Shown: in pieces, positions 36,412 to 46,903 of the stretch
Position numbering within the stretch: position 1 is the stretch's first letter
Layout: every line of letters starts with the position of its first letter
Source: Escherichia phage YJin-2024a
Strand: one strand, 5' to 3'
DNA: 64,000 bases
Sequence record: PP534475.1
Position numbers and translations under genes: made by a program
The notes under the pieces: generated by a model
Databases searched by the model: none
What the model was told of the DNA's origin: nothing
What the model saw: only the letters and a program-made list of their open reading frames with translations

Positions 36412-36685
36412 CTTCATCCTCGCCACTACAATCACGACATACATCATAATCGTTGAAAGAACGTTCGTGAGCTTCACACCACCAAGAACAAGAATCGCAG
36501 AGAAACATTTCGGTTTTCTCCAGTGCTTGACCTAAAAGATCATCAGCTTCCTCAGCAGGAATCTTCAATCCGCACACATCTGCCACACGTTCTTTAATTA
36601 AACGACCTGCTTCGTGGTAAGACATACAGGTTCCCGTAACATCATGTTCAAGAACATGAACAGCACAGTCTAGACGAGTTTTCAT
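36404..36685 (-). CDS. zinc-ribbon protein (93 aa)
   Basis: CDSCSWWC ... CRDC cysteine pairs. Confidence 0.5.
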   Translation of the reverse strand: MKTRLDCAVHVLEHDVTGTCMSYHEAGRLIKERVADVCGLKIPAEEADDLLGQALEKTEMFLCDSCSWWCEAHERSFNDYDVCRDCSGEDEDE

Positions 36686-36715
36686 TTCAAACCTCTCTCA
36701 TCAATTTATAAACAT

Positions 36716-36744
36716 ATTATAGCAAGAAAAGAGAGGTTTAGCAA
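36716..36744 (-). promoter_or_regulatory. early sigma70 promoter, PN25-like family
   Basis: TTGCTA-17-TATAAT on the minus strand. Confidence 0.55.
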
Positions 36745-36761
36745 ATGAATTATTTCAGAAT

Positions 36762-37109
36762 TTAGTCATAGCACCACCATAACCCATGCTTACGCATGTC
36801 ATGATCGCGATTATAATCATAATTTTCTGGATCTTTCATCACGCGGTGGAGTTCTTGACGATTCCCTTGACGAACCATTTTATTAGAATGCCACTTAACA
36901 TTCTTACTAATAGAATTCCAGTTATAACCATCCTTTTTCTCATTACGAATGGTTGCTTCCTTCATTTCCTGTTCTACATCATCCCAGGATTTAGCATAAA
37001 TAACACGAATCCAGTAGCCATTTTCTTTGAGGAAAGAATATTCTTGAGAGAAGTGTTCTTTAGACTTCCACCACTGATCACCAGATTGTCTACGATAAGT
37101 ACGGCTCAT
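36762..37109 (-). CDS. hypothetical protein (115 aa)
   Basis: ORF only. Confidence 0.5.
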   Translation of the reverse strand: MSRTYRRQSGDQWWKSKEHFSQEYSFLKENGYWIRVIYAKSWDDVEQEMKEATIRNEKKDGYNWNSISKNVKWHSNKMVRQGNRQELHRVMKDPENYDYNRDHDMRKHGLWWCYD

Positions 37110-37230
37110 ATTACCTCCATTAAGTCTTTTAAATTAACCTAATGTGGATGAATTTTATTATACATAAACTATTTTCCTGTATACAGAAAAACCCCAGACT
37201 ACTTATTCAATAGCTGGGGTTTGTTATTAA

Positions 37231-37545
37231 TTACAGATCGGGGCGTTCATCTTCGAAACAGCCTGAGCTAATTCCTTCTCCGAATCCTACAAAGCCATCA
37301 AATTCATCATTTGAGATGCCCATAATCATTGCTTCCATTTTCCTAATCTCCGAGATTTTCATGCCTGCTTTACTATTCTTATAGTACTTGCGAGGGTTCC
37401 CACACATCCAACAAGAACAGATGCAAGGAGTAGTAGTGATAATACCTAACCGTTTAGGGCTTTCTTCATGTGGGAAGACTGTCCAATACTTTTTGCGATT
37501 GTTCTTCACACGTTGCCGGTGATGACGTCTTAATGCTCGATCCAC
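37231..37545 (-). CDS. Cys-rich hypothetical protein (104 aa)
   Basis: CICSCWMCGNP cluster. Confidence 0.45.
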   Translation of the reverse strand: MDRALRRHHRQRVKNNRKKYWTVFPHEESPKRLGIITTTPCICSCWMCGNPRKYYKNSKAGMKISEIRKMEAMIMGISNDEFDGFVGFGEGISSGCFEDERPDL

Positions 37546-37626
37546 ACATTTCTCCTAAAACTTGGGAGATAAACGGAGTTTGCTCGACTACCTTGCGTAG
37601 CTGGTAGAAATCGTATCCAAACCCCA

Positions 37627-37995
37627 TTACATCGCCTGAGTAAATGTACGACTAATAACGTCGTTCTGTTGTTCACGCGTCAATGCATTAAATCGAACAG
37701 CATAGCCAGAGACACGGATTGTCAGCTGAGGATATTTTTCAGGATGTTTCTGCGCATCCAAAAGCTGATCACGGCTTAATACATTGACATTTAGGTGCTG
37801 ACCACCTTCGATTTGAGGGGCGACTTCCACTTTGACTTCACGGAAGGCTTCGGGATCGAATTGTGGTGTGATACCTTCTAGATCTTCAACTAGAACTTTC
37901 TGTTTAAGTTCACCGTTGTCGGAGTATAGCTGAATAATCTGATTTTCATGGACAAGGTTAATTACGCCAGATTTAAGATTTTGATATGCTTTCAT
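37627..37995 (-). CDS. autonomous glycyl-radical cofactor, GrcA/YfiD-like
   Basis: C-terminus [25 protein letters not shown] is the glycyl-radical signature and closely resembles E. coli GrcA as I recall it. Confidence 0.75.
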
Positions 37996-38037
37996 TAGAT
38001 CTCCCCGATGTTAGAATTTGGCTCAGCTATTTATTCT

Positions 38038-38232
38038 TTATACTTTTCCATAGTATACGGAAACTGTCTTACCAGTTTGGTTCATAACATATGCTACTTC
38101 ATCTTCTTTTAAAAAGATAGCTTGGTCTACTCCAACTATAGCCAATCTTTTATTTCTAGGATTAAAGCTTACACTTTTGCCTGTATGAATCTGTTCCCCA
38201 TTCTTGGCTGACATTATTTTAATTGTTAACAT
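38038..38232 (-). CDS. hypothetical protein (64 aa)
   Basis: ORF only. Confidence 0.4.
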   Translation of the reverse strand: MLTIKIMSAKNGEQIHTGKSVSFNPRNKRLAIVGVDQAIFLKEDEVAYVMNQTGKTVSVYYGKV

Positions 38233-38269
38233 AGCTGCTCCTAAAGTTAGCTATCTCTAGCTCTTTTAA

Positions 38270-38345
38270 TGGTAGTTAGTAGTGGATTTGAACCACTGTA
38301 GTCGCTCCGTATGAAGGAGGTGCATAACCACTCTGCCAACTAACT
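38270..38345 (-). tRNA. tRNA with CAU anticodon (Met or Ile2)
   Basis: T-arm, 7-bp acceptor pairing, CCA encoded; anticodon loop UUCAUAC. Confidence 0.7.
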
Positions 38346-38441
38346 GTTATGTTTTACTAGACTAAGTAAGTATTCTTTATACTCTTTAGACCAACTAGCT
38401 TTTTTAAACTTTCCTGGACGCATAGTCTTAATTCCTAAATT

Positions 38442-38518
38442 TGGTACTCCGGGAGGGATTTAAACCCCCGATCTCTCGGTTATCAGCCGAGTGCTTTAGA
38501 TCGCTAAGCTACCGAAGC
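38442..38518 (-). tRNA. tRNA-Ile (GAU)
   Basis: Acceptor and T-arm pairing, CCA encoded; loop CUGAUAA. Confidence 0.7.
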
Positions 38519-38519
38519 A

Positions 38520-38726
38520 TTAATATTTAATTGCAGAACGTTTACCATTTCTAGGCGCACCTGGAAGTCGTGCACGTTCTGCCATTCTTCGCTTAATCTT
38601 TGAGATATTTTCTAGTGTTTGTTCTTCAGGCTTAATACCTGAAACACTACACCACTGATTACCATCCCATGCGATAATGATCATAACACCATTACCCATA
38701 ATCTTTTCTGTGAAAGTAATTCTCAT
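38520..38726 (-). CDS. hypothetical protein
   Basis: ORF between tRNA genes; start at internal Met. Confidence 0.35.
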   Translation of the reverse strand: MRITFTEKIMGNGVMIIIAWDGNQWCSVSGIKPEEQTLENISKIKRRMAERARLPGAPRNGKRSAIKY

Positions 38727-39019
38727 TATAGCAACTCGTCTAAGCAAGAGGTATATTTAAGTTTACCATCTTTATCTACTTTGATTTCGACTTCCGCTCG
38801 TGGTACTTGACGAACTACACCATGAATCATCTTATAGCGAATGCCTTTAGCTGGTTCACGATCTTTTGGAAATACTTGCTTAACCGTTACTACCTTGAAA
38901 CCCTCACGCGGTGTTAACACTACTACTTGATCACCTTCTTTGATCTTCCAAGAGCTAGGAAATTCATAGGTATAGCGTTGACCACCAGTTTGGAACACAA
39001 CAGAAAGATAACGTTTCAT
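38726..39019 (-). CDS. hypothetical protein (97 aa)
   Basis: ORF with PN25-like promoter upstream. Confidence 0.5.
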   Translation of the reverse strand: MKRYLSVVFQTGGQRYTYEFPSSWKIKEGDQVVVLTPREGFKVVTVKQVFPKDREPAKGIRYKMIHGVVRQVPRAEVEIKVDKDGKLKYTSCLDELL

Positions 39020-39049
39020 TTGGTTTCCCTCTCATTAATTTATATAAAT

Positions 39050-39078
39050 ATTATAACAAGAAATAAGAGAGAAGGCAA
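39050..39078 (-). promoter_or_regulatory. early sigma70 promoter, PN25-like family
   Basis: TTGCCT-17-TATAAT on the minus strand. Confidence 0.5.
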
Positions 39079-39086
39079 ATGAATTT

Positions 39087-39254
39087 TTAATAAAGTTTAG
39101 TCACTTCATAAACTATACTACGAGATTCTTTATTACGTTGTATTAAATTAGCGTATGCTTCTTCAGCTTCATTTTTAGTATTAAAGTCTATAACGTGAGA
39201 GGTATTAGCTCTATTTGATTGGCTATACCAGATAACTACTAGGAGTTTAAACAT
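39087..39254 (-). CDS. hypothetical protein
   Basis: Start moved to the internal Met with AAGGAT RBS to avoid the adjacent tRNA. Confidence 0.35.
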   Translation of the reverse strand: MFKLLVVIWYSQSNRANTSHVIDFNTKNEAEEAYANLIQRNKESRSIVYEVTKLY

Positions 39255-39268
39255 ACTAATCCTTAAAT

Positions 39269-39355
39269 TGGTGCTGGGCACAGGATTCGAACCTGCAACG
39301 GGATTACTCCTCCTGATTACAAATCAGGTGCATTCAACCATTCTGCCAACCCAGC
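39269..39355 (-). tRNA. type II tRNA (long variable arm), anticodon loop UUUGUAA, isotype uncertain
   Basis: 87 nt; 3-bp D stem and 15-nt variable arm; anticodon reads UGU, which is atypical for a type II body. Confidence 0.5.
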
Positions 39356-39520
39356 AGAACCCGTTATTTCAACGGGATTTCTTTTTCAATAACAAGAGAC
39401 TTGTCAGTCATAACTGTCATTGCCATTTGTTGTAGAAATTCAAAGGTGAAGGCTACACGTTCTTCACCAATCTCTACTTCTACACGTTTCTTTTGTTTAT
39501 CGATCTTGACTTTTAGGTTA

Positions 39521-39742
39521 TCAGCCATCTTCGGGTTCTCGTTGCTGCGCTACTTCTAGCCAGTCTGGTAGAAGAAACTTTGTACGAAATTCTTCGTAAG
39601 TTTCTTTGGGATAAAAGCTAAAACCTCCTTTCTCGTCATTCAGGATAACAGAGCCGTCAGTTTGTTCGTATGCTCGGTATGTTTCTCCAATAACAATAAC
39701 TCGTTTATCGGTACTTTTATTACGAAATTCAAAAACGTGCAT
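39521..39742 (-). CDS. hypothetical protein (73 aa)
   Basis: ORF only. Confidence 0.45.
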   Translation of the reverse strand: MHVFEFRNKSTDKRVIVIGETYRAYEQTDGSVILNDEKGGFSFYPKETYEEFRTKFLLPDWLEVAQQREPEDG

Positions 39743-39758
39743 AACGTTTCCTTAAAGT

Positions 39759-39834
39759 TGGAGCGGCTAGAGGGAATCGAACCCTACTCAGCGAGGCTTG
39801 GAAGGCCTGCGACACAACCCGTGTGCTTAACCGC
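39759..39834 (-). tRNA. tRNA-Gly (UCC)
   Basis: Acceptor and T-arm pairing; loop CUUCCAA. Confidence 0.7.
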
Positions 39835-39842
39835 TTATTGTT

Positions 39843-39919
39843 TGGCTGGAGAAGGAGGAATCGAACCTACCATTAACGGAGTCAAAGGCCGTTGTGCTAA
39901 CCGTTACACTACTCTCCAA
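39843..39919 (-). tRNA. tRNA-Gln (UUG)
   Basis: Acceptor and T-arm pairing; loop CUUUGAC. Confidence 0.7.
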
Positions 39920-39924
39920 TTATT

Positions 39925-40000
39925 TGGCTGGAGTGCCTGGGATCGAACCAGGAACCTTCGGAGTCAGAGGCCGACGATCTGCCAATTGATCTACACTCCA
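39925..40000 (-). tRNA. tRNA-Gln (CUG)
   Basis: Perfect acceptor pairing; loop CUCUGAC. Confidence 0.7.
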
Positions 40001-40008
40001 ATAATCCT

Positions 40009-40209
40009 TTACTCTACAGGAACCGTGGCTATTGGTTCTGGTTCTTCTAGACGTTTGCCTTCATGATCTACACGAATAACACCACAACCTTCACAGATTA
40101 CAACAGCACCGTAGCCTTCTTTAACTTCGGCTTCTGTAATCAAACCAGAAAGATCACCAGTATCTTTACCCCACATATCAATGGAGCATTGTTTGCAGAA
40201 ATCAGCCAT
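40009..40209 (-). CDS. zinc-ribbon protein (66 aa)
   Basis: CKQC ... CEGCG cysteine pairs. Confidence 0.45.
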   Translation of the reverse strand: MADFCKQCSIDMWGKDTGDLSGLITEAEVKEGYGAVVICEGCGVIRVDHEGKRLEEPEPIATVPVE

Positions 40210-40234
40210 ATTTTATTTCCTATTTAAGTTAATT

Positions 40235-40311
40235 TGGGGTGGCTAGTGGAATTCGAATCCACATAGGCCTGATTCACAATCAGGATCATTAACCAATTAT
40301 GATATAGCCAC
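40235..40311 (-). tRNA. tRNA-His (GUG)
   Basis: Perfect acceptor and T stems; loop UUGUGAA. Confidence 0.7.
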
Positions 40312-40680
40312 AATTGAAAACTCGCAGGGTTAGCGAAACCTTCCTCAATTAGCATGTTCTAGAATACTAATCAAGTTATCTCCTATTGCACGCAGCTCAA
40401 GACGAGTACGAGTTTTCAATTGTGGCGGCTCTCCGAAACTCTTCTACTCTAGCCTTAGCAGCTTACTCCCGAACGCATGTCGGGAAAGTCTTACTAAGAG
40501 CATCAAATAGCTCCGTTACACTTTGAGCCATAGATGTATCAAGAAGCAGAAGGACTTGAACCTTCACGAGATAGACCATTTATCTCAGCCGCTTTATGAG
40601 GTATGTTGTAGAGAGTGGATGTTCTCTATAAACCTTTTAGGCAGCCCCGTCTACCAATTCCGGCATACTTCAAGAATTTC

Positions 40681-40863
40681 TTATAAACCAGCAGAAGCCT
40701 CATTTAAAGCATCAACAATAGCCTGTTGTTGCGTCCATCCTCTACCAGTAGAATTAACATGTGGAAGATATACTTCCCAATAACCGTCCTCTAGTAAGGT
40801 TATTTGTGCACTAAACTCTGTGCCATCAGTTAGTGTAACCTTCACAGTTTTTGTTAAAGACAT
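40681..40863 (-). CDS. hypothetical protein (60 aa)
   Basis: ORF only. Confidence 0.4.
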   Translation of the reverse strand: MSLTKTVKVTLTDGTEFSAQITLLEDGYWEVYLPHVNSTGRGWTQQQAIVDALNEASAGL

Positions 40864-40879
40864 ATATTATCCTATAAGT

Positions 40880-40969
40880 TGGCAGAAGATAATGGAGTCG
40901 AACCATCACCGTATCGCTACAGCGGGCTGGTTTTCAAGACCAGTTACGTACCACTACGTCCTATCTTCT
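40880..40969 (-). tRNA. tRNA-Ser (UGA), type II
   Basis: 90 nt; perfect acceptor pairing; loop CUUGAAA. Confidence 0.7.
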
Positions 40970-40975
40970 ATTGTT

Positions 40976-41066
40976 TGGCGGAAGAGGAGAGATTTGAACT
41001 CTCAAGCCGTTTTACCAGTCAGCCACTTTCCAAGCGGTTTTCGTCGCCAATTCGATTTGCTCTTCC
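40976..41066 (-). tRNA. tRNA-Ser (GGA), type II
   Basis: 91 nt; perfect acceptor and T stems; loop UUGGAAA. Confidence 0.6.
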
Positions 41067-41178
41067 AATAATAAGATGATGCCTCTATCACACCAGGCAG
41101 TTACGCCTCGCTGGGATTCGAACCCATTAAAACAGCTCAACCGAGATAGTAGGTTTAATTTACTCTGACCATCAAATT

Positions 41179-41255
41179 TGGTGCGTGACAAGGGATTCGA
41201 ACCCTCAAAACCCGACTTCTAAGGACGGTATGTATGCCAATTCCATCAATCACGC
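41179..41255 (-). tRNA. tRNA, anticodon UAG (Leu-like) with short variable arm
   Basis: Acceptor and T-arm pairing; GAATTGG D-loop; loop CUUAGAA. Confidence 0.55.
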
Positions 41256-41260
41256 ATGTT

Positions 41261-41339
41261 TGGTGGAGAATAACGGAATCGAACCGTTCTGATGTCCTCG
41301 GTGCAAGCGAGGTGTCCACTCCATGCAGACCCATTCCCC
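41261..41339 (-). tRNA. tRNA-Ala (UGC)
   Basis: Acceptor and T-arm pairing; loop CUUGCAC. Confidence 0.65.
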
Positions 41340-41671
41340 AAATTCTTTAGTTTACTAAGGCTATTAGCTCGGCGTAACTACAGCACCTTCGCTTCAAGCG
41401 GAAGGAACCGCGTCATCTCGCAAACCCGATACACTATTCAGTTGCCACTGAATCTAGTGGACTAATCTAGAACTTCTCCCGAATCGTAGGGATCGTGCTT
41501 TTTGGCAGCCAGTCCTAGGTCGAGCTAATACCTTAGTGAACTAAATTGATGGATACCAGACTAATTTTGCTACGACGTTTATCCTGGGGATCTCTTTTTC
41601 GGTAGCTCTGCTAGTGTAGACGTCATACACCTGGTATCTAGGCAGCTATTTTCGCATCAATTTATATAAAT

Positions 41672-41700
41672 ATAATAACAAGAAATTAAGCATCAAGCAA
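41672..41700 (-). promoter_or_regulatory. early sigma70 promoter feeding a tRNA operon through a ~330 nt non-coding leader
   Basis: TTGCTT-17-TATTAT on the minus strand; no ORF downstream before the tRNAs. Confidence 0.45.
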
Positions 41701-41718
41701 CTACGTTTTTCTTGAAAT

Positions 41719-41797
41719 TGGTAGATCGCCTGGGACTCGAACCCAGAACCTTCCGATTAAAAGTCGGATGCTACTAAACCTATTGAGCTAGCGATCT
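41719..41797 (-). tRNA. tRNA-Lys (UUU)
   Basis: Perfect acceptor, T and anticodon stems; loop CUUUUAA. Confidence 0.7.
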
Positions 41798-41986
41798 ATT
41801 AGTAACCATTGTATACTTCTTTAATAGAGTGAACTTTCAGGTAATGGTGATTAGTACTAAACTCTACCATTACTTCATCCCAATTTTTACCATAATGGGC
41901 AAGTAAGGATTTTGATGTATTCTTACCTAACCGTTTGTCACTTACTACTAATCGAAATACTTTCATTTCGAAATCCTCTATTAAAA

Positions 41987-42064
41987 TGGAAGCGGGTGCA
42001 GGAATCGAACCTACCTCTTTCTAGCTTATGAGACTAGCGATCTCTACCAGAGATCTAACCCGCA
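41987..42064 (-). tRNA. tRNA with CAU anticodon (second copy; Met/fMet/Ile2)
   Basis: Loop CUCAUAA; 1-72 position unpaired, as in initiator-type tRNAs. Confidence 0.6.
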
Positions 42065-42070
42065 ATTGTT

Positions 42071-42148
42071 TGGTCTCCGTGAGAGGATTTGAACCCCCGA
42101 CCCTATCGCCCCAAACGAAACGCTCTGGCCAAACTGAGCTACACGGAG
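42071..42148 (-). tRNA. tRNA-Pro (UGG)
   Basis: Perfect acceptor pairing; loop UUUGGGG. Confidence 0.65.
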
Positions 42149-42150
42149 AA

Positions 42151-42310
42151 TATTATTTCTTCAACCACAACAAAGATAAGCCCAGCATACTAAAGCCGCT
42201 AACTAATCCGATACATTTTTCTTCTATAGTAAAAGTATCTAGATTAAATGCTGTTATAGCTATTGGCATACACCATAATGCCATAAAAACTTGAGCTATC
42301 TTGTGTTTCA
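42151..42310 (-). CDS. small membrane peptide (53 aa)
   Basis: GAAGGAAAG RBS; hydrophobic; behind a PN25-like promoter; not in the ORF track. Confidence 0.35.
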
Positions 42311-42343
42311 TTTTGCTTTCCTTCTCTTCACTTTATAAAATAT

Positions 42344-42372
42344 ATTATACAGAGAATTAAGCAGAATAGCAA
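42344..42372 (-). promoter_or_regulatory. early sigma70 promoter, PN25-like family
   Basis: TTGCTA-17-TATAAT on the minus strand. Confidence 0.55.
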
Positions 42373-42764
42373 ATGAATTTTTAATAAATTTACTTATTGT
42401 GTAGGCCACCTGGAGGCTATGAACCCCACGGCTGACAAAGAAGTTTGCGAGACCTCTCTTAAATGCCAGAATAGACCCGCCGATCTATCGGAACCTACAT
42501 AATAAGTAAACTTTATAGTGTCATTCTAGACAGGACTCGAACCTGTTATCACTTGTGCGGACTTACGAGAACCATTCTTTCACTCGAATCGAACGAGCTT
42601 CTGCCCTAGCCAAGCTGGTTTCCCCATCAACCACGCTAGAATGTTTGATTGTTTTCAGTGCAAGAGTCCGAGTCTTGGACACGACCGCTTCGCAAGTACA
42701 TAGGCAGCTTATCATGAGTCAGCACTTCCGAATTGCTAGCTCCGTGTTCTGCACTGAAATTTTG

Positions 42765-43112
42765 TTAATTTAATAGTAAAGTACGATCTACTTCACCATT
42801 AATTGTTCGGCATTCTTCTGGGATTGCTGGTGTAGTCTTATATTCCCACCATTCAGAACCATCATATTCACCACGTTCTAACCAAGTTCCGTCAGTAAAC
42901 CATACATTACCATAAAGCAATTGCCCACCGAAACCCGAGTCATATTTAAAGTCTAGATTATTTAGAAAATCTTCAATATCTTTTTCTGTATAACCTACGG
43001 GCAATACCCAAACTTCTTTGTCTCCATAATAACCGAATTCTATCTTAATACACTTAACTTCAGAATTAGTATTCTTTAGGGCAAGTAACAACTCTTCTTT
43101 AGCATTAATCAT
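42765..43112 (-). CDS. hypothetical protein (115 aa)
   Basis: ORF only. Confidence 0.5.
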   Translation of the reverse strand: MINAKEELLLALKNTNSEVKCIKIEFGYYGDKEVWVLPVGYTEKDIEDFLNNLDFKYDSGFGGQLLYGNVWFTDGTWLERGEYDGSEWWEYKTTPAIPEECRTINGEVDRTLLLN

Positions 43113-43138
43113 AGCATATTTCTCGTGCTAGTTTAATT

Positions 43139-43215
43139 TGGCGCGACCGATGGGATTCGAACCCACATTCTCTCCCGTGACAGGGGAGTACCATTACCAA
43201 GCCAGCCCCGGTCGC
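43139..43215 (-). tRNA. tRNA-Asp (GUC)
   Basis: Perfect acceptor pairing; loop CUGUCAC. Confidence 0.75.
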
Positions 43216-43224
43216 ATAATTCAT

Positions 43225-43410
43225 TTACTCAGCTTTGAGTTTTTCAATAGCTGCATTAAGTTCCTTAAGAAACTCTTTTCGTACATTAAGACGATTAAGA
43301 CTTACTAGTATATCATGTTTAAGTTCTTCGATGTATTTCTTCTCAACTTCAATATTGTTGATAGTGCTATCACGATGAACTTCTAGCTGCGCAATTACAT
43401 TCTTGGACAT
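43225..43410 (-). CDS. hypothetical coiled-coil protein (61 aa)
   Basis: ORF only. Confidence 0.4.
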   Translation of the reverse strand: MSKNVIAQLEVHRDSTINNIEVEKKYIEELKHDILVSLNRLNVRKEFLKELNAAIEKLKAE

Positions 43411-43512
43411 GCTTGTTTCCTCAGTTATTAATGAAAATGGTATCTGTGGCTGAATTCGATGTCAGCAATGATAGCTGGTTGGCTACCGGTTTACTTAACT
43501 CTACACAGAATT

Positions 43513-43595
43513 TGGCGGGCCGTGTAGGATTCGAACCTACGTTGTCTTTCGACATGGATTAACAGTCCACCGCCAAACCGCTTGGCTAACGACCC
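43513..43595 (-). tRNA. tRNA with GUU anticodon (Asn) on a body carrying a 13-nt variable hairpin
   Basis: 83 nt; acceptor and T-arm pairing; loop CUGUUAA; extra arm GTC-GAAA-GAC. Confidence 0.55.
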
Positions 43596-43747
43596 TAAAT
43601 TTATATTGCTGACTAGGATTTTCACCTAGACGGAGTTAGCACCGTAGCGTGTAGCGGCATACCTCTCCAAACCGTGCCTCATCTTTCAATTACGGAGACA
43701 GTGTTCCTACGCGTGCCTGAATTGTTTTAACAATTCTTTCAGCAAAT

Positions 43748-43823
43748 TGGACGACCGCATGAGATTTGAACTCACATAAAAAGGATTTGCAATCCTTCGC
43801 CTAAGCCATTCAGCCAACGGTCG
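43748..43823 (-). tRNA. tRNA-Cys (GCA)
   Basis: Acceptor pairing; perfect anticodon stem; loop UUGCAAA. Confidence 0.7.
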
Positions 43824-43871
43824 ATTTATCTTATTCTATCATGTTGCTTCTCCAGTTCAATTTATGTAATT

Positions 43872-43900
43872 ATTATACAGAACTTTTGGAAACTAAGCAA
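43872..43900 (-). promoter_or_regulatory. early sigma70 promoter upstream of tRNA-Cys
   Basis: TTGCTT-17-TATAAT on the minus strand. Confidence 0.5.
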
Positions 43901-44180
43901 CTACATTTTTTAAGAATTTGATGCCTTTCTTTTTCTTCTTATATTTCCACGTTAATGGATTCTGTCGATTGTGAACGCTTGAGATCTTTGTCTCGTCAAA
44001 GTTCTTCAATATCATGTAATCACAAGATAATTGTTCTAATGGAATGTGATCACCGTCAAAAGCGTATACATAAGGCTGTTGACTAGCACGATAATGATAG
44101 ACTTTGTTAATTCTACGTTTCAGCGACTTATCCGCGCAGTAAATAAAGAAGTTTTCAGGATGCATCAGCAGCTCCTTCAA
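43893..44180 (-). CDS. hypothetical basic protein (95 aa)
   Basis: ORF only. Confidence 0.45.
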   Translation of the reverse strand: MKELLMHPENFFIYCADKSLKRRINKVYHYRASQQPYVYAFDGDHIPLEQLSCDYMILKNFDETKISSVHNRQNPLTWKYKKKKKGIKFLKNVVA

Positions 44181-44263
44181 ATTGGTGCACCCTGTTCGTA
44201 TCGAACGAACCTCTCAAGCTCTTCAGGCAAGCGCTAATCCATCTCAGCTAAAGGTGCAAATTT

Positions 44264-44340
44264 TGGCAAACCTACTAGGACTCGAACCTAGACCGTACGG
44301 TTTTGGAGACCGACATGCTGTCCAGTAACACTCTAGGAAT
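44264..44340 (-). tRNA. tRNA-like, anticodon loop CUCCAAA (Trp CCA) but acceptor stem does not pair
   Basis: Perfect T-arm and anticodon arm; CCA encoded; no complementary 5' acceptor strand found. Confidence 0.4.
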
Positions 44341-44348
44341 GCAGGAAT

Positions 44349-44425
44349 TGGCGTCCTGTGCGGGGATCGAACCCGCAAATCCTACCTTGAAAGGGTAGTG
44401 ACTTTACCAGTTTGTCTAACAGGAC
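44349..44425 (-). tRNA. tRNA-Glu (UUC)
   Basis: Perfect acceptor, T and anticodon stems; loop CUUUCAA. Confidence 0.75.
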
Positions 44426-44431
44426 TTAAAT

Positions 44432-44519
44432 TGGTGGGGAAAGATGGAGTCGAACCACCCGAGTCGCAATGACAACTGATTTACAGTCAGCTCTGCTACC
44501 ACTTACAGAATATTTCCCC
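44432..44519 (-). tRNA. tRNA-Tyr (GUA), type II
   Basis: 88 nt; perfect acceptor pairing; loop CUGUAAA. Confidence 0.7.
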
Positions 44520-44650
44520 ATATTTAGAAGTATTCAAAAAATTCTAATTTAAACACTTTTAAATATGTTTCCAAATTAGATAACTATTATACCAAGTTTT
44601 AAGGCACTGAGCAAGTCAAATTTTAAAGAACTTGCTCAGTGCTGTATTAG

Positions 44651-44926
44651 TTAGTCGAACTTAGGAGCGACAGTTAAGGAGAACGGAAGTTCGAAAACTT
44701 CTTCGCCCTCATCACTAACAGTAATTACACGACCTTTAAGTTCAGACATTGAAATATCAATATCAGCTTTTGCATCTGGAGCCATGCCAGCTTCAACACA
44801 TTTAGCTTTAATTTCCGGCAGAAGTTCTACATCGTAGAAATAAAGCCATTCAATCTCACCTTCCCAGCCTTCCCAGGATTTACAGATTGCACTTTCAATA
44901 CCAGTTGCTATAACACGATTTTGCAT
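44651..44926 (-). CDS. hypothetical acidic protein (91 aa)
   Basis: ORF with promoter upstream. Confidence 0.5.
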   Translation of the reverse strand: MQNRVIATGIESAICKSWEGWEGEIEWLYFYDVELLPEIKAKCVEAGMAPDAKADIDISMSELKGRVITVSDEGEEVFELPFSLTVAPKFD

Positions 44927-44956
44927 TCGTTAACTCCTTCATCAATTTATATAACT

Positions 44957-44986
44957 ATTATACCAGAAATTTAAAGCAAAAGGCAA
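44957..44986 (-). promoter_or_regulatory. early sigma70 promoter, PN25-like family
   Basis: TTGCCT-18-TATAAT on the minus strand. Confidence 0.45.
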
Positions 44987-45016
44987 GTACATTTTTAAAA
45001 ATTCTGTTTGGAGGAG

Positions 45017-45223
45017 CTAAACTCCAGATTCTTCAGCCAAGTCTAGACTAATAAGAGATATAGCCATAATTGCCGCTCCATGTTCTTTTTCTCCAGTCTC
45101 TTTAGCTAGAGTTATAATGTCAAGAAATTGCTTATGAAAATCTGCAACCTCTTGAGTTATACCTGCCTCAGCAATCATACCTTTAAGCATGAAACGTTGT
45201 GCGGTAATTTCAGGATTAGCCAT
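45017..45223 (-). CDS. hypothetical protein (68 aa)
   Basis: ORF only. Confidence 0.4.
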   Translation of the reverse strand: MANPEITAQRFMLKGMIAEAGITQEVADFHKQFLDIITLAKETGEKEHGAAIMAISLISLDLAEESGV

Positions 45224-45398
45224 GTTGTTTCTCCAGTTTCATCTTTAATAGTCTACAAATAAAATCAATGTCTTCATCCGTGCCTAGATCTCTATCTTCA
45301 AGAGTTGCCTTGAAGTTTTTAGTCAATTCCATAAGGATGACTTCCCTAGAACGACGTGTTGGCGGAGGTGGATGTCTATACATCTTATTTCCTTAATT

Positions 45399-45475
45399 TG
45401 GTAGGGGTGGTGGGATTCGAACCCACAAAACCTGAATTTTAAGTCCAGTACCTATGCCAATTCGATTACACCCCC
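45399..45475 (-). tRNA. tRNA, anticodon UAA (Leu-like) with short variable arm
   Basis: Acceptor and T-arm pairing; GAATTGG D-loop; loop CUUAAAA. Confidence 0.55.
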
Positions 45476-45576
45476 GTGTAATCAGTTTATTAGTTGATAC
45501 ATATTATAGCCTAGTGAAAATCCTACTACTAGTCCCACAAACCAACCAATATAATAATCTTTTAGTTTCACAGGTA

Positions 45577-45762
45577 TTATCCTCGTTCAATATCTAGGGA
45601 AATACCACAGTTAGGATTAATACCTGTACCACTGCAATTTGGGCAAACCCAGATATTGCAAAAAGTATCTCCTGCTTCTGCATCAGAACTTTCACCAATT
45701 CCCCTACACTCAGGGCAGACACATTCTTCTAGCTCTTGCTTGAGTTCTTGAAACTTAGACAT
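45577..45762 (-). CDS. small zinc-finger protein with two CxxCxGxG motifs (DnaJ-type zinc centre)
   Basis: CPECRGIG and CPNCSGTG. Confidence 0.5.
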   Translation of the reverse strand: MSKFQELKQELEECVCPECRGIGESSDAEAGDTFCNIWVCPNCSGTGINPNCGISLDIERG

Positions 45763-45770
45763 ATAGTCTC

Positions 45771-46172
45771 CTAATTAAGTTTTTCAAAACGACCTAGAGA
45801 ATCTCTAGTCATCTTATTTAAGATTTTTCCCATATTCTGCTTTCTTGTGAATAATTCTAGGTTAGGTAAAGCATTATTAGACTTATCATCATCTTTGTGC
45901 TCTATTTCATAGCCTTCCGGTATTTCACCGTTGAAAGCCATCCATACGAGTCTGTGCACATATTCATTTTTACCTAGTCCCTTATTGCAAATTTTCACCT
46001 GAAAATATCCAGATTTACCATTGCAACGTGGAGATAATACCTTTCCTTTTATAGTTCTAGTGTACTCGCTATATTGATTTCGTTGTGTTATTATTCTATC
46101 CTTAGTTTCTATTGTACCATTTAAGTGTACAATTAAAATAACACCAAAGTACTCAAATTCAACCTTTTCCAT
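45771..46172 (-). CDS. HNH homing endonuclease
   Basis: EIEHKDDDKSNNALPNLELFTRKQN HNH-family motif. Confidence 0.65.
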   Translation of the reverse strand: MEKVEFEYFGVILIVHLNGTIETKDRIITQRNQYSEYTRTIKGKVLSPRCNGKSGYFQVKICNKGLGKNEYVHRLVWMAFNGEIPEGYEIEHKDDDKSNNALPNLELFTRKQNMGKILNKMTRDSLGRFEKLN

Positions 46173-46186
46173 ACGTAATACCTAAT

Positions 46187-46261
46187 TGGTGGGTCGGAGG
46201 AGAATCTAACTCCTACTCATTAGCTTATGAGGCCACCGCTTTAACTTTAAGCTACCGACCC
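46187..46261 (-). tRNA. tRNA-like with non-canonical anticodon loop and T-loop
   Basis: Perfect acceptor and T stems, CCA encoded, but a 6-nt anticodon loop between perfect 5-bp stems and a TTAGATT T-loop. Confidence 0.4.
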
Positions 46262-46267
46262 TATGTT

Positions 46268-46361
46268 TGGAGGAAGATGCCAGACTCGAACTGGCACACC
46301 GTGTTTCCACAGTTACTGGCTGTTTAGCAAACAGCTCCCTTACCTTTAGGGTTAATCTTCC
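46268..46361 (-). tRNA. tRNA-Ser (GCU), type II
   Basis: 94 nt; perfect acceptor and T stems; loop UUGCUAA. Confidence 0.65.
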
Positions 46362-46382
46362 AAATTTATAAGATATATTATA

Positions 46383-46844
46383 TTAGAAATTTAGCTTCAT
46401 AGCAAGAAAATTTTTCAAGTTTTCGGTAGACATCTCATCCACATCTATAGGAGAAACAAAGCCGTTTAATTTTCTAGCAAATTTTTCACCTGCAGGGTCA
46501 TTATCCCCGACAGCTACCAATTTAAAAGGTAGTAATTTCAGTTGCTTTAATAACGCAACTGCCTTAAATACAGATTCAGCAATCAATACTACTTTTTCAT
46601 CTCCATTGAGAGTTTCTAGTCCCCATACACACTGGGTAGTAGAATGAGTAAAGTATTTAGCTTCAAAGGGGCACTTACCATGACCTTTTGGAGCAGAAGG
46701 ATTATAAGTTTGATAGCCCCTCAACATCCCAGAGAAGTCATATAACGGGACTGTTAGCCATCCTTCCGGACTTAACCAGCAATGATATTTATCTGTATCA
46801 AATCCTCTAGATAAGAGGTGCTGTGTTAGCTCATCAACATTCAT
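46383..46844 (-). CDS. Toprim-like domain protein
   Basis: VVLIAESVF ... VAVGDNDPAG resembles the Toprim acidic motif. Confidence 0.45.
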   Translation of the reverse strand: MNVDELTQHLLSRGFDTDKYHCWLSPEGWLTVPLYDFSGMLRGYQTYNPSAPKGHGKCPFEAKYFTHSTTQCVWGLETLNGDEKVVLIAESVFKAVALLKQLKLLPFKLVAVGDNDPAGEKFARKLNGFVSPIDVDEMSTENLKNFLAMKLNF

Positions 46845-46874
46845 ATTTGGTTCCTCTCTCAAATTTATAGATAT

Positions 46875-46903
46875 ATTATACAGAGAATTTAGCATTCAAG
46901 CAA
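46875..46903 (-). promoter_or_regulatory. early sigma70 promoter, PN25-like family
   Basis: TTGCTT-17-TATAAT on the minus strand. Confidence 0.55.

What the first reader, a model, noticed from the sequence alone, without database searches (positions are those of the whole stretch)
40320..42765. Several promoter-fed non-coding stretches inside the tRNA cluster
Regions 40323-40680, 41340-41655, 42300-42520 and 42650-42765, and also 49920-50420 and 50500-50715 further along, contain no credible ORF yet lie downstream of PN25-like promoters (for example 41672-41700 and 50716-50744) and contain T-arm-like hairpins and other stems. They may encode stable non-tRNA RNAs or long structured leaders of tRNA operons.
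Basis: seen in the sequence. Interest (0 to 1): 0.5.

Follow-up and report, generated by a model that had tools for sequence, protein, structure and literature searches.

The report
T5-type stable RNAs among tRNAs
The gene-free gaps in this T5-like phage's tRNA cluster are copies of phage T5's long-known stable RNAs of unknown function, and several are tRNA look-alikes whose anticodon loop is replaced by a conserved folded module, so the finding is real but not new.

Summary
The window is a T5-like phage (Tequintavirus), and its tRNA cluster lies on the minus strand. Every flagged stretch maps at 86-100% identity onto features annotated in the T5 GenBank record AY543070 as 'stable RNA with unknown functions'. 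These are RNAIII, RNAI and RNA1 (40313-40674), RNA2H (41348-41543), RNAIV and RNA2 (42398-42643), and RNAX (49919-50697). The orthologues of T5 promoters P13b, P13a and P16-17 are also present.

No sense-strand ORF survives comparison with relatives. The RNAs are conserved like tRNAs and better than the neighbouring small ORFs. Compensatory base changes support the folds:
- RNA1: 11 of 36 pairs.
- RNA2: 19 of 35 pairs.
- RNA2H: 11 of 61 pairs, with a 22-bp closing stem and z = -5.3.

RNA1, RNA2 and the element inside RNAX are tRNA bodies without a usable anticodon loop. RNAI and RNA3 end in an encoded CCA.

One result goes beyond the annotation. RNA2 belongs to a phage-specific family found in the tRNA clusters of unrelated phages (a T4-like Acinetobacter phage and jumbo-phage contigs), and it has no Rfam model.

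Function remains unknown. T5 deletion variants lacking most of these RNAs (not RNAX) are viable. Verdict: observation confirmed, interpretation supported, already known in kind, moderate interest.

The parts
40313..40418 (-). RNAIII orthologue. It has a 12-bp closing stem (UGAAAACUCG.../...CGAGUUUUCA), and its 3' end abuts the 5' end of tRNA-His.
   Evidence: 98% identical to T5 rnaIII. z = -3.60. Only 9 sequence variants among loci, and the C/U change at position 7 keeps the pair with G. Found in Tequintavirus and SH9 only.
40423..40529 (-). RNAI orthologue. The 5' GGCUC pairs with GAGCC and is followed by an encoded GCCA-3' end. It has an internal hairpin CCCGA-CAUGCGU-UCGGG.
   Evidence: 91% identical to T5 rnaI. 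98-99% identical in Epseptimavirus SE3 and vaffelhjerte. RNAalifold predicts 32 pairs, and the changes are almost all wobble-compatible. z = -2.19.
40530..40674 (-). RNA1 orthologue, a tRNA mimic with a long variable arm (class II type). It has an acceptor stem, a tRNA-Leu-like D-arm, a variable arm and a T-arm (40549-40565). The anticodon loop is replaced by an arm of about 45 nt that ends in the invariant loop ACAUCCAC (40615-40622).
   Evidence: 86% identical to T5 rna1, which is annotated 'tRNA-like stable RNA'. Rfam tRNA scores 25 bits, below the gathering score of 29, with a 45-nt insert in the anticodon loop. Of 36 pairs, 99.3% of cells are paired, 11 pairs and 43 cells are compensatory, and 0 of 500 shuffles reach this. 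Present in Tequintavirus, Epseptimavirus and Sugarlandvirus.
41348..41543 (-). RNA2H orthologue. It is a multi-helix RNA of about 195 nt closed by a 22-bp stem, lying just 5' of tRNA-Ala.
   Evidence: 98% identical to T5 rna2H. MFE -75.7 kcal/mol, z = -5.28. Of 61 pairs, 98.9% of cells are paired against 28-43% when the partners are slid. Helices 4 and 7 differ in sequence between Tequintavirus and Epseptimavirus but stay paired. No Rfam match at E<=10.
41544..41654 (-). Structured leader module between promoter P13b and RNA2H. It is absent from T5 and closed by AGAUACCAG/CUGGUAUC.
   Evidence: Present in 84 of 426 matching phage records. About 96% identical in Obesumbacterium phage Ob_P, with one compensatory C-G to U-A change in the long-range stem. 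z = -0.70.
41655..41719 (-). Orthologue of T5 early promoter P13b (-35/-10 at 41696-41669).
   Evidence: 91% identical to the annotated T5 promoter. Scan match TTGATG-16-TATATT.
42317..42391 (-). Orthologue of T5 promoter P13a (-35/-10 at 42372-42344). It drives the small ORF 42153-42311 and tRNA-Pro and tRNA-fMet, not the RNAs upstream of it.
   Evidence: 92% identical to T5 P13a. TTGCTA-17-TATAAT.
42398..42500 (-). RNAIV orthologue, a three-hairpin RNA closed by the stem GUAGGUUCC/GG.GGCCUAC.
   Evidence: 96% identical to T5 rnaIV. 89% identical in Epseptimavirus. 35 pairs, 3 with double changes and few broken. z = -2.70.
42519..42643 (-). RNA2 orthologue, a tRNA mimic. It has an 8-bp acceptor stem, a D-arm, a 5-bp anticodon stem and a T-arm. 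The anticodon loop is replaced by a module of about 55 nt containing a second T-loop hairpin (GCUCG-UUCGAUU-CGAGU), a conserved YGG, and CGUAAGUCCGCA.
   Evidence: 96% identical to T5 rna2, which is annotated 'tRNA-like'. On the alignment built with covariance model R1, 35 pairs show 95.5% of cells paired against 27-41% when slid. 19 pairs and 57 cells are compensatory, and 0 of 500 shuffles reach this. Family members occur in Sugarlandvirus, Hongcheonvirus, Acinetobacter phage 133 and jumbo-phage contigs.
42644..42764 (-). Structured spacer that is not annotated in T5, closed by UUUCAGUGCA/UGCACUGAAA. It is possibly a further processed RNA.
   Evidence: 98-100% identical in 20 Tequintavirus loci. 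Absent from Epseptimavirus, which has tRNA-Lys(CUU) at this position. z = -1.62. The ORF 42563-42715 across it carries stop codons in several relatives.
43438..43510 (-). It is a putative tRNA-like RNA ending in an encoded ACCA, immediately 3' of tRNA-Asn.
   Evidence: 100% identical to T5 rna3. 92-97% identical in Epseptimavirus. z = -3.02.
49919..50697 (-). RNAX orthologue, a transcript of about 780 nt running from promoter P16-17 to tRNA-Arg.

Its conserved islands are:
- the tRNA-like element 50421-50492 with flanks (50394-50528);
- the island 50211-50283;
- the 17-bp hairpin 49924-49961 just 5' of tRNA-Arg.

The segment 50549-50697 is missing in T5.
   Evidence: 92-99% identical to T5 rnaX, which is 719 nt and annotated 'stable RNA'. 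Conservation is mosaic, with islands retained in Sugarlandvirus and in Hongcheonvirus DU_PP_V. Rfam tRNA scores 34.2 bits with the anticodon arm unaligned. The 3' 502 nt give z = -2.15. The hairpin gives z = -2.83.
50698..50755 (-). Orthologue of T5 promoter P16-17 (-35/-10 at 50744-50716).
   Evidence: 95% identical to the annotated T5 promoter. TTGCTA-17-TATAAT.

Best explanation
The stretches are genes for stable, highly structured non-coding RNAs. They are the orthologues of phage T5's RNAIII, RNAI, RNA1, RNA2H, RNAIV, RNA2, RNA3 and RNAX.

**Shown here**
- They are non-coding.
- They lie in the same order as in T5.
- They are conserved at least as well as the tRNAs around them.
- Their helices are maintained by compensatory changes.
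- RNA1, RNA2 and the element inside RNAX keep a tRNA's acceptor stem, D-arm and T-arm but have no usable anticodon loop. RNA1 and RNA2 carry a conserved folded module in its place.
- RNAI and RNA3 end in an encoded CCA.

**Inferred from layout and from established tRNA-operon processing**
- The RNAs are made by host sigma-70 RNA polymerase from the early promoters (P13b, P16-17 and one further upstream) as parts of long tRNA-mRNA precursors.
- They are then cut out by the host tRNA-maturation enzymes. RNase P would cut at the 5' side of each acceptor-like stem and of the next tRNA. RNase E or RNase III plus exonucleases would trim back to the closing stems.
- Their compact folds make them stable.

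**Inferred, with low confidence (about 0.3)**
- The tRNA mimics act in trans as competitors or decoys for a factor that recognises the tRNA body. Candidates are a tRNA-targeting host defence nuclease or a processing or modification enzyme.
- They do not act as decoders.
- RNA2H and RNAX are trans-acting structured RNAs of unknown partner.
For: **Orthology and synteny with annotated stable RNAs**
- (86-100% identity).

**Non-coding**
-.

**Conservation**
- 96-100% identity in 20 or more Tequintavirus loci.
- RNA1, RNA2 and the RNAX islands are found in other genera and in another subfamily where the neighbouring ORFs are not.

**Covariation**
- RNA1: 11 of 36 pairs, 99.3% of cells paired.
- RNA2: 19 of 35 pairs, 95.5% of cells paired.
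- RNA2H: 11 of 61 pairs, 98.9% of cells paired.
- RNAIV and RNAI changes are compatible with pairing.
- The leader module has one compensatory pair.

**Thermodynamic stability**
-.

**tRNA scaffold**
- Rfam tRNA scores 25 bits for RNA1 with an insert in the anticodon loop.
- Rfam tRNA scores 34 bits for the RNAX element with the anticodon arm unaligned.
- The RNA2 covariance model also matches every genuine tRNA end to end at 18-35 bits.

**Head-to-tail layout without spacers**
- The order is RNA1 | RNAI | 4 nt | RNAIII | tRNA-His.

**RNA2 family in unrelated phages**
- It occurs inside tRNA clusters, on the same strand as the tRNAs.
- It is essentially absent from bacterial genomes.

**Context from the literature**
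- The T5 tRNA region serves counter-defence (PMC11464382; PMC11555353).
Against: - No transcript data were available here. Stability rests on the T5 GenBank annotation, not on a paper I could read.
- T5 variants with deletions of 29,191-32,442 and 30,661-38,625 are viable. Together these remove RNAIII, RNAI, RNA1, RNA2H, RNAIV, RNA2 and RNA3, but not RNAX, which lies at 40,848-41,566.
- Variants lacking about 8 kb of the tRNA-rich region are also viable. Their sensitivity to retrons Eco2 and Eco7 was rescued by an ORF and tRNA-Tyr alone.
- Sensitivity to PARIS was rescued by tRNA-Lys alone. No phenotype so far points to these RNAs.
- RNA1, RNA2 and the RNAX tRNA-like region do not fold better than shuffled sequence (z = -1.4, -0.9 and +1.4). 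This is usual for tRNA-like RNAs.
- Much of the RNA2H covariation comes from one or two clade-level helix swaps.
- The decoy idea has no direct support. A search for targets complementary to the invariant RNA1 loop found nothing above chance.
Confidence: 0.75

Rival explanations
1. The elements act only in cis, as punctuation and insulation. Their acceptor-like stems and closing helices exist to direct RNase P, E or III cleavage and to block exonucleases. This would release the interspersed tRNAs and small mRNAs correctly. The excised pieces would be by-products with no function of their own.
For: - The units abut each other and the tRNAs without spacers.
- Every unit is closed by a 5'-3' stem.
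- A conserved 17-bp hairpin sits directly 5' of tRNA-Arg in three genera.
- The module 41544-41654 and RNA2H sit between a promoter and the first tRNA.
- Deletion variants are viable.
Against: - Punctuation needs only a minimal tRNA-like fold. RNA1 keeps an invariant 8-nt loop on a covarying stem.
- RNA2 keeps a module of about 55 nt with invariant motifs across unrelated phages whose tRNA bodies and neighbours differ.
- The T5 record calls them stable RNAs, meaning they accumulate.
Confidence: 0.25
2. RNAX is a divergent member or analogue of the large ornate phage RNAs GOLLD and ROOL. These lie near tRNA islands, and GOLLD can carry tRNAs in its linker region. On this reading RNAX works as a multimeric RNA assembly.
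For: - RNAX is about 0.7-0.8 kb and phage-encoded, starts at its own promoter, carries an embedded tRNA-like element and ends at a tRNA.
- It has conserved islands separated by variable stretches.
- GOLLD and ROOL are described as phage or prophage RNAs near tRNA islands, with tRNAs sometimes in the GOLLD linker (PMC12286853).
Against: - No GOLLD or ROOL match in Rfam, even at E<=10.
- Overall folding is only moderately better than shuffled sequence (z = -2.15).
- Conservation is mosaic rather than an ornate conserved core. RNAX may instead be processed into several smaller RNAs.
Confidence: 0.1
3. The elements are decaying tRNA pseudogenes and scars of homing-endonuclease traffic. They would be transcribed because they sit in tRNA operons but evolve neutrally.
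For: - The cluster is mosaic. T5 has the homing-endonuclease genes hegC and hegD and a tRNA-Val that the window lacks. tRNA-Ser(GGA) is degenerate here.
- Other records label some of these elements tRNA-OTHER, pseudo-tRNA, tRNA-Ser or tRNA-Leu.
Against: - Compensatory changes keep 95-99% of cells paired.
- Loops and modules are invariant across genera.
- Conservation equals or exceeds that of genuine tRNAs and exceeds that of flanking ORFs.
- The RNA2 family is retained in unrelated phage lineages.
Confidence: 0.04
4. RNA1 and RNA2 are intron-containing tRNA genes. The insert in the anticodon loop would be spliced out to give functional tRNAs.
For: - The inserts sit exactly where the anticodon loop should be.
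- In RNA2, removing the module would leave a 7-nt loop, GCUA+GCA (read directly from the sequence).
Against: - The inserts are 45-62 nt, far shorter than group I introns. No intron family matches in Rfam.
- The residual loops lack U33 and a purine at position 37.
- T5 annotates the stable species at full unspliced length, 144 and 125 nt.
- The acceptor stem is 8 bp and no CCA is encoded.
- Bacteria have no known enzyme that splices short anticodon-loop inserts in the way the archaeal tRNA-splicing endonuclease does (established knowledge).
Confidence: 0.04
5. The stretches encode small proteins that ORF callers miss or call only occasionally.
For: - Several GenBank records place 'hypothetical protein' features over these regions.
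- One ORF (50317-50454) matches phrog_19105 at E = 1e-35.
Against: - Every candidate ORF is interrupted or loses its start in close relatives.
- Substitutions are not concentrated at third codon positions.
- The PHROG ORF starts inside the T-arm of the tRNA-like element.
Confidence: 0.02

Closest known systems
Phage T5 stable RNAs RNAI, RNAIII, RNAIV, RNA1, RNA2, RNA2H, RNA3 and RNAX (misc_RNA features of GenBank AY543070)
   Same: Same sequences (86-100% identity), same order relative to the tRNAs and to promoters P13b, P13a and P16-17, and same strand. These are the same genes in a sister phage.
   Different: - The window has an extra leader module of about 110 nt upstream of RNA2H.
- It has an extra 149 nt at the 5' end of RNAX.
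- It has a deletion of about 65 nt inside RNAX.
- It lacks T5's hegC, hegD and tRNA-Val.
Phage T4 species 1 and species 2 RNAs (rnaC and rnaD)
   Same: - Small stable RNAs of 139 and 119 nt, with function still unknown.
- Encoded inside the phage tRNA cluster next to tRNA-Arg and co-transcribed with tRNAs.
- rnaC carries a canonical T-arm. The genomic sequence continues as CCA at the 3' end of rnaD.
   Different: - No sequence similarity by blastn.
- Not detected by the RNA2 covariance model at E<=1.
- They are therefore analogues, not demonstrated homologues.
- A different T4-like phage, Acinetobacter phage 133, does carry a true RNA2-family member (81 bits).
Canonical tRNA (Rfam RF00005)
   Same: Acceptor stem, D-arm with conserved GG, T-arm with the GGUUCRAnUCC loop, and location in tRNA operons.
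   Different: - No 7-nt anticodon loop.
- RNA1 has an extension of about 45 nt, RNA2 a module of about 55 nt, and the RNAX element a 3-4 bp stem with a 6-nt loop.
- The RNA2 family has an 8-bp acceptor stem and no encoded CCA.
- ARAGORN calls none of them.
GOLLD and ROOL large ornate RNAs of phages and prophages
   Same: Large, phage-encoded, near tRNA islands, sometimes with embedded tRNAs, and of unknown function (PMC12286853). RNAX shares these traits.
   Different: No match to the Rfam models. RNAX is smaller, less uniformly conserved and only modestly structured overall.
Other non-decoding tRNA mimics: the tRNA-like domain of tmRNA and bacterial YrlA Y RNAs
   Same: RNAs that copy the acceptor and T-arm part of tRNA and use tRNA-processing or tRNA-binding proteins without decoding. 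This comparison rests on my own knowledge of these families.
   Different: - ARAGORN finds no tmRNA.
- No Y RNA or YrlA match in Rfam.
- In YrlA the free ends lie in the Ro-binding stem, whereas here they lie in the acceptor stem.
- There is no tag reading frame.

Membership tests
T5 stable RNA set (AY543070 misc_RNA features) | Sequence orthology to each annotated RNA | tested here: met
   blastn identities: rnaIII 98%, rnaI 91%, rna1 86%, rna2H 98%, rnaIV 96%, rna2 96%, rna3 100%, rnaX 92-99%.
T5 stable RNA set (AY543070 misc_RNA features) | Same position relative to tRNAs and to promoters P13b, P13a and P16-17 | tested here: met
   Feature order compared with the mapped coordinates. The promoters are 91-95% identical.
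T5 stable RNA set (AY543070 misc_RNA features) | Accumulation as discrete stable RNA species during infection | not testable with these tools
   Only the GenBank note 'stable RNA with unknown functions'. No expression data were available.
tRNA (RF00005) | Score at or above the Rfam gathering threshold of 29 bits | tested here: inconclusive
   RNA1 scores 25 bits, below threshold. RNA2 has no hit. The RNAX element scores 34.2 bits, above threshold.
tRNA (RF00005) | 5-bp anticodon stem with a 7-nt loop presenting an anticodon | tested here: not met
   RNA1 has a 45-nt insert. RNA2 has a module of about 55 nt. The 18-nt arm of the RNAX element is left unaligned by the model. ARAGORN makes no call.
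T4 rnaC/rnaD (species 1 and 2 RNAs) | Sequence or structure homology to T4 rnaC or rnaD | tested here: not met
   blastn finds only chance-level words. Covariance model R1 hits the T4 tRNAs but not coordinates 1409-1672 of locus L074.
T4 rnaC/rnaD (species 1 and 2 RNAs) | Small non-tRNA RNA genes embedded in a phage tRNA operon | tested here: met
RNA2-type anticodon-replaced tRNA mimic (family defined here by model R1) | tRNA body plus an inserted module with GGGY, a GUUCGAUUC hairpin, YGG and CGUAAnUCCGCA | tested here: met
   The window copy scores 153.6 bits. Other phages score 35-154 bits. The alignment is shown.
GOLLD / ROOL | Match to the Rfam covariance models | tested here: not met
   No hit at E<=10 in 38000-51000 or in 49919-50715.
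tmRNA | tRNA-like domain plus a tag reading frame | tested here: not met
   ARAGORN reports no tmRNA in the window. No Rfam tmRNA hit.
Group I intron in a tRNA gene | Group I intron core inserted in the anticodon loop | tested here: not met
   No intron family in Rfam at E<=10. The inserts are only 45-62 nt.

The most novel reading that the evidence does not exclude
RNA2 is the founding member of a widespread, phage-specific class of 'anticodon-replaced' tRNA mimics that has no Rfam model.

I found it in tRNA clusters of Demerecviridae, of a T4-like Acinetobacter phage and of several jumbo-phage contigs of 150-360 kb.

Its conserved module carries a second T-loop hairpin plus a conserved GG, which could form a second tRNA-elbow-like knob. 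On this reading the module gives the RNA a specific trans-acting role in the phage-host conflict over tRNAs. One example would be soaking up a defence nuclease or a processing factor that docks on the tRNA body. RNA1 would be a T5-lineage-specific analogue.
Probability: 0.3. Interest if true: 0.8.

Novelty: already known. Interest (0 to 1): 0.45.

Why it matters
Phage tRNA clusters have recently been shown to be counter-defence arsenals. T5 tRNA-Lys counters PARIS (PMC11464382), and tRNA-Tyr counters retron Eco7 (PMC11555353). A T6 study reports the same for Septu (PMC13096335).

The non-tRNA RNAs that share these operons have had no assigned function: T5's RNAI-IV, RNA1-3 and RNAX, and T4's species 1 and 2.

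This analysis adds no new gene. It does turn vague 'stable RNA' annotations into testable objects:
- It gives covariation-supported secondary structures.
- It recognises that at least three of them are tRNA bodies with the decoding end replaced.
- It shows that one of them (RNA2) is a conserved family spread across unrelated phages but essentially absent from bacterial genomes.

That pattern argues for a selected function tied to tRNA biology, and it identifies exact constructs for knock-out, complementation and pull-down experiments.

It also flags annotation errors. Spurious 'hypothetical protein' and 'tRNA-OTHER/Ser/Leu/Sec' calls, and one PHROG family, sit on these RNAs in hundreds of T5-like genomes.

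Tried and rejected
1. **Rfam at relaxed thresholds** on each region. Nothing appeared beyond weak tRNA matches. I discarded the Hrs13, ZFAT-AS1 and sR35 hits as chance: they are on the wrong strand or lack base pairs, and their E-values are 0.04-5.

2. **Coding potential**. Rejected. The phrog_19105 match is an ORF-calling artefact that overlaps the tRNA-like element.

3. **Homology to T4 rnaC and rnaD**. Not found. A 15-nt resemblance (UCGAUUCGAG-GAAA) between the 5' end of rnaC and the RNA2 module has E = 0.2, so I did not rely on it.

4. **Target search for the invariant RNA1 loop.** Its complement GTGGATGT occurs 4 times in the window against 1.2 expected, and one of the four is the site itself. 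No lead.

5. **Which tRNA the mimics derive from**. No phage tRNA is clearly closest. The RNA1 D-arm resembles bacterial tRNA-Leu, but that comparison sequence came from my memory, so this is only a lead.

6. **RNA1 outside T5-like phages.** Two pattern scans of IMG/VR returned only the same 27 T5-like contigs.

7. **RNA2 in bacterial genomes.** The scan gave 30 pattern hits. My own estimate of the chance expectation is about 48. Only 2 were confirmed by the covariance model, both on large metagenome-assembled contigs that may be phage.

8. **blastn with a divergent RNA2 member** against cultured phages. It lacked the sensitivity to find non-T5 members.

9. **Literature.** I found no open paper describing the T5 stable RNAs directly. 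Three papers checked by term search (the anticodon-loop evasion study, the CRISPRi-ART screen and the SegB study) did not mention these RNAs.

10. **Generic promoter scan.** It is not enriched over shuffled sequence, so the promoter claims rest on orthology only.

Full report
**What the window is**

The flanking 2.6 kb is 94-99% identical to many T5-like phages of Salmonella and Escherichia, with 591 matching records. ARAGORN finds 23 tRNA genes between 38270 and 49918, all on the minus strand. Rfam adds a 24th tRNA-like hit at 50421-50492. Everything below is therefore read on the minus strand.

**The decisive comparison**

The T5 GenBank record AY543070 annotates a series of misc_RNA features in its tRNA region, in addition to tRNAs, small ORFs and promoters:
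- rnaIII, rnaI and rna1 ('tRNA-like stable RNA with unknown functions') between a small ORF and tRNA-His.
- rna2H between promoter P13b and tRNA-Ala.
- rna2 ('tRNA-like') and rnaIV just upstream of promoter P13a.
- rna3 next to tRNA-Asn.
- A 719-nt rnaX between promoter P16-17 and tRNA-Arg.

blastn of these features against the window places them as follows:

| T5 feature | Window coordinates | Identity |
|---|---|---|
| rnaIII | 40313-40418 | 98% |
| rnaI | 40423-40529 | 91% |
| rna1 | 40530-40674 | 86% |
| rna2H | 41359-41530 | 98% |
| P13b | 41655-41719 | 91% |
| P13a | 42317-42391 | 92% |
| rnaIV | 42398-42500 | 96% |
| rna2 | 42519-42643 | 96% |
| rna3 | 43438-43510 | 100% |
| rnaX | 49919-50548 | 92-99% |
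| P16-17 | 50698-50755 | 95% |

**Checking the observation**

*Non-coding.* The only sense-strand ORFs of at least 38 aa inside the stretches acquire stop codons, frameshifts or lose their start codon in close relatives. Their substitutions show no third-position excess. One ORF (50317-50454) matches phrog_19105. It starts inside the T-arm of the tRNA-like element and is broken in SE3, rutana and vaffelhjerte, so that PHROG family is most likely an ORF-calling artefact.

*Promoters.* The consensus scan recovers TTGCTA-17-TATAAT at 50744-50716 and at 42372-42344, and TTGATG-16-TATATT at 41696-41669. Such sites are not enriched over shuffles in general, so the evidence is their orthology to T5's annotated promoters.

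- 42317-42391 is itself promoter P13a, which fires away from RNAIV, RNA2 and the spacer. Those RNAs must be transcribed from a promoter further upstream.
- 40313-40680 lies about 1 kb behind P13b, after three tRNAs, a degenerate tRNA-Ser remnant and a small ORF.

**Conservation**

Across about 20 Tequintavirus loci from IMG/VR, the RNA units are 91-100% identical. In a feature-by-feature table:
- RNA1, RNA2, the RNAX tRNA-like island and the hairpin before tRNA-Arg are still found by nucleotide BLAST in Klebsiella Sugarlandviruses (74-90%). RNA2 and the two RNAX elements are also found in Pectobacterium phage DU_PP_V, which belongs to a different subfamily (70-93%).
- Only one of the eight protein-coding ORFs compared in and around the cluster is detectable there.
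- RNA2H, RNAIV, RNAI and RNA3 are shared by Tequintavirus and Epseptimavirus.
- RNAIII and the spacer 42644-42764 are essentially restricted to Tequintavirus.

**Structures**

*RNA1 (40530-40674).* RNA1 aligns to the Rfam tRNA model at 25 bits. The match covers a 7-bp acceptor stem, a D-arm GCCGGAAUUGGUAGACGG, a long variable arm, a T-arm and a 45-nt insertion in the anticodon loop.
- On 15 distinct sequences, RNAalifold predicts 36 pairs.
- 99.3% of cells are paired, against 42-48% when the partners are slid.
- 11 pairs and 43 cells show changes on both sides, and none of 500 shuffles reaches these values.
- The acceptor stem reads GAAGUA/UGCUUC here, GGAAUA/UGUUCC in T5 and GAUGCCG/CGGGGUU in Klebsiella phages.
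- The inserted arm ends in a hairpin whose stem covaries (AGAGA, AGGGA, UAGGA, GCAGA) while its loop ACAUCCAC is invariant.

*RNA2 (42519-42643).* RNA2 has an 8-bp acceptor stem, a D-arm, a 5-bp anticodon stem, a 4-nt variable loop and a canonical T-arm. The anticodon loop is replaced by a module of about 55 nt. The module contains a second T-loop hairpin (GCUCG-UUCGAUU-CGAGU), a conserved YGG and CGUAAGUCCGCA.
- I built a covariance model (R1) and aligned 20 homologues to it.
- 35 pairs show 95.5% of cells paired, against 27-41% when slid.
- 19 pairs and 57 cells are compensatory, and 0 of 500 shuffles reach this.
- This alignment is fitted to the model, so it leans towards the structure. The compensatory changes are nevertheless visible in the plain MAFFT alignment.
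- R1 also matches every genuine tRNA end to end at 18-35 bits. This shows that the scaffold is a tRNA.

*RNA2H.* RNA2H folds to -75.7 kcal/mol with z = -5.28.
- It is closed by a 22-bp stem, and 61 pairs show 98.9% of cells paired against 28-43% when slid.
- Two helices have entirely different sequences in Epseptimavirus yet stay paired. That is only one or two evolutionary events, so the statistical weight is modest.
- Two compensatory changes in phage SE3 favour a local hairpin (UCUAG/CUAGA to UCUGA/UCAGA) over part of the consensus. This hints at alternative conformations.
- RNA2H has no Rfam match at E<=10.

*RNAIV, RNAI and RNAIII.* These vary little. Their changes are compatible with the predicted folds, and their z-scores are -2.7, -2.2 and -3.6. 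RNAI ends in ...GAGCC-G-CCA and RNA3 ends in ...ACCA, so both have encoded tRNA-type 3' ends.

*Spacer 42644-42764.* This unannotated spacer has a 10-bp closing stem and is 98-100% conserved in Tequintavirus.

*Leader 41544-41654.* This promoter-proximal segment is absent from T5 but present in 84 of 426 matching records. It is closed by a long-range stem that shows one compensatory change in phage Ob_P. The 'structured leader' reading therefore applies here.

*RNAX.* RNAX is mosaic. Its conserved parts are:
- A tRNA-like element with flanks (50394-50528). Rfam tRNA scores it at 34 bits but leaves the anticodon arm unaligned.
- An island at 50211-50283 with a covarying hairpin (UAGAA/UUCUA in the window, UAGGC/GCCUA in Klebsiella phages).
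- A 17-bp hairpin at 49924-49961 directly 5' of tRNA-Arg.

The 149 nt at 50549-50697 are missing in T5 but present in most relatives.

**A result beyond the annotation**

A search with the RNA2 region hit an unannotated 105-nt gap between tRNA-Gly and tRNA-Cys of the T4-like Acinetobacter phage 133. A motif scan of IMG/VR (TTCGATTC-N14-24-CGTAANTCCGCA) then returned 42 stretches, about 16 of them from contigs that are not T5-like. These include contigs of 155-364 kb.
- R1 scores them at 35-82 bits.
- ARAGORN shows that nearly all sit inside tRNA clusters on the tRNA strand.
- In these members the tRNA body differs and covaries, while the inserted module keeps its invariant motifs.
- The same scan of one genome per bacterial species gave 30 hits. 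My own estimate of the chance expectation is about 48. Only two were confirmed by the model, both on large metagenome-assembled contigs.
- The family is therefore essentially phage-specific and has no Rfam model.
- RNA1, in contrast, is confined to T5-like phages.

**How it most likely works**

*Shown.* These are non-coding, structure-constrained RNA genes interleaved head to tail with tRNAs.

*Inferred from the layout and from established knowledge of tRNA-operon maturation.* They are transcribed by host RNA polymerase from T5-type early promoters as parts of polycistronic precursors. RNase P cuts at each acceptor-like stem and at the next tRNA. For example, the 3' end of RNAIII is the 5' end of tRNA-His. 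Endonucleases and exonucleases then trim back to the closing stems.

*Inferred with low confidence.* The tRNA mimics act in trans on something that recognises the tRNA body. The context favours this. The T5 tRNA region is a counter-defence locus (PMC11464382; PMC11555353), and a tRNA body without an anticodon loop cannot decode or be cut by an anticodon nuclease, but it can still be bound.

*Evidence against.*
- T5 variants with deletions of 29,191-32,442 or 30,661-38,625 are viable. Together these remove every one of these RNAs except RNAX.
- Their known defence phenotypes were rescued by single tRNAs or an ORF.

**Comparison with what is known**

- The features are members of the T5 stable-RNA set, and orthology and synteny were tested and met.
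- They are analogous to T4's species 1 and 2 RNAs (rnaC and rnaD), which also sit next to tRNA-Arg in a tRNA operon and also lack a known function. Homology was tested and not found.
- RNAX resembles GOLLD and ROOL in size, in phage origin and in its association with tRNA islands (PMC12286853), but it does not match their models.
- None of the elements is a canonical tRNA, a tmRNA or an intron-bearing tRNA by the tests run.

**Verdict**

The remaining interest lies in three things: their unknown function, the structures now supported by covariation, and the breadth of the RNA2 family.

Noticed in passing
L073:2452-2575 (Acinetobacter phage 133, NC_015250 about 69544-69667); also L075, L079, L086, L089, L092, L094-L098, L103 and L126: The RNA2-type RNA is a tRNA body with the anticodon loop replaced by a conserved module carrying a T-loop hairpin. 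It occurs unannotated in the tRNA clusters of a T4-like phage and of many unrelated phage contigs, some of them jumbo-sized. It has no Rfam family.
   Followed up: partly
window 39759-39834 (-): A tRNA-Gly(UCC) that is 100% identical to T5 tRNAG1 is missed by ARAGORN. Rfam sees it only as a sub-threshold tRNA-Sec hit (30.9 bits). The cluster therefore holds at least 24 genuine tRNAs.
   Followed up: partly
window 40980-41178 (-): A degenerate remnant of tRNA-Ser(GGA) lies here (79% identity to the first 48 nt of the T5 gene; Rfam tRNA-Sec 19.7 bits). It is followed by about 110 nt containing another T-arm-like hairpin (GGGUUCGAAUCCC). T5 has the homing-endonuclease gene hegC at this place and the window does not.
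   Followed up: no
window 50317-50454 (-): PHROG family phrog_19105 (45 aa, unknown function) corresponds to an ORF that starts inside the T-arm of the RNAX tRNA-like element. The ORF is broken in several relatives, so the family is probably an annotation artefact propagated through T5-like genomes.
   Followed up: yes
window 41179-41339 (-): The window's tRNA-Leu(UAG) and tRNA-Ala(UGC) give no blastn match to the T5 genes of the same specificity. The tRNA-Ala is 90-94% identical to those of Epseptimaviruses and of Pectobacterium phage DU_PP_V. tRNA alleles are evidently exchanged as cassettes.
   Followed up: partly
window 49924-49961 (-): An AU-rich 17-bp hairpin immediately 5' of tRNA-Arg(UCU) is conserved at 86-93% in Epseptimavirus, Sugarlandvirus and Hongcheonvirus. 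It is a candidate processing signal, for example an RNase III site.
   Followed up: partly
window 48807-48838 (both strands): A strong 13-bp GC-rich hairpin with U-tracts was found by the terminator scan. It lies between convergent genes, at a position analogous to the 'efficient bidirectional rho-independent terminator' annotated in T5. I did not map it onto T5.
   Followed up: no
L036 13137-13207; L037 10230-10302; L071 9676-9748 (Epseptimaviruses): Epseptimaviruses carry a tRNA-Gly(GCC) between RNA2 and RNAIV and a tRNA-Lys(CUU) in place of the spacer 42644-42764. The window has only an 18-nt linker between RNA2 and RNAIV.
   Followed up: no
L072 (Obesumbacterium phage Ob_P, PQ664488 23500-36500): This phage appears to have lost most of the tRNA cluster but keeps RNA2H, its leader module and RNA1, close to the YqeY-like gene.
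   Followed up: no
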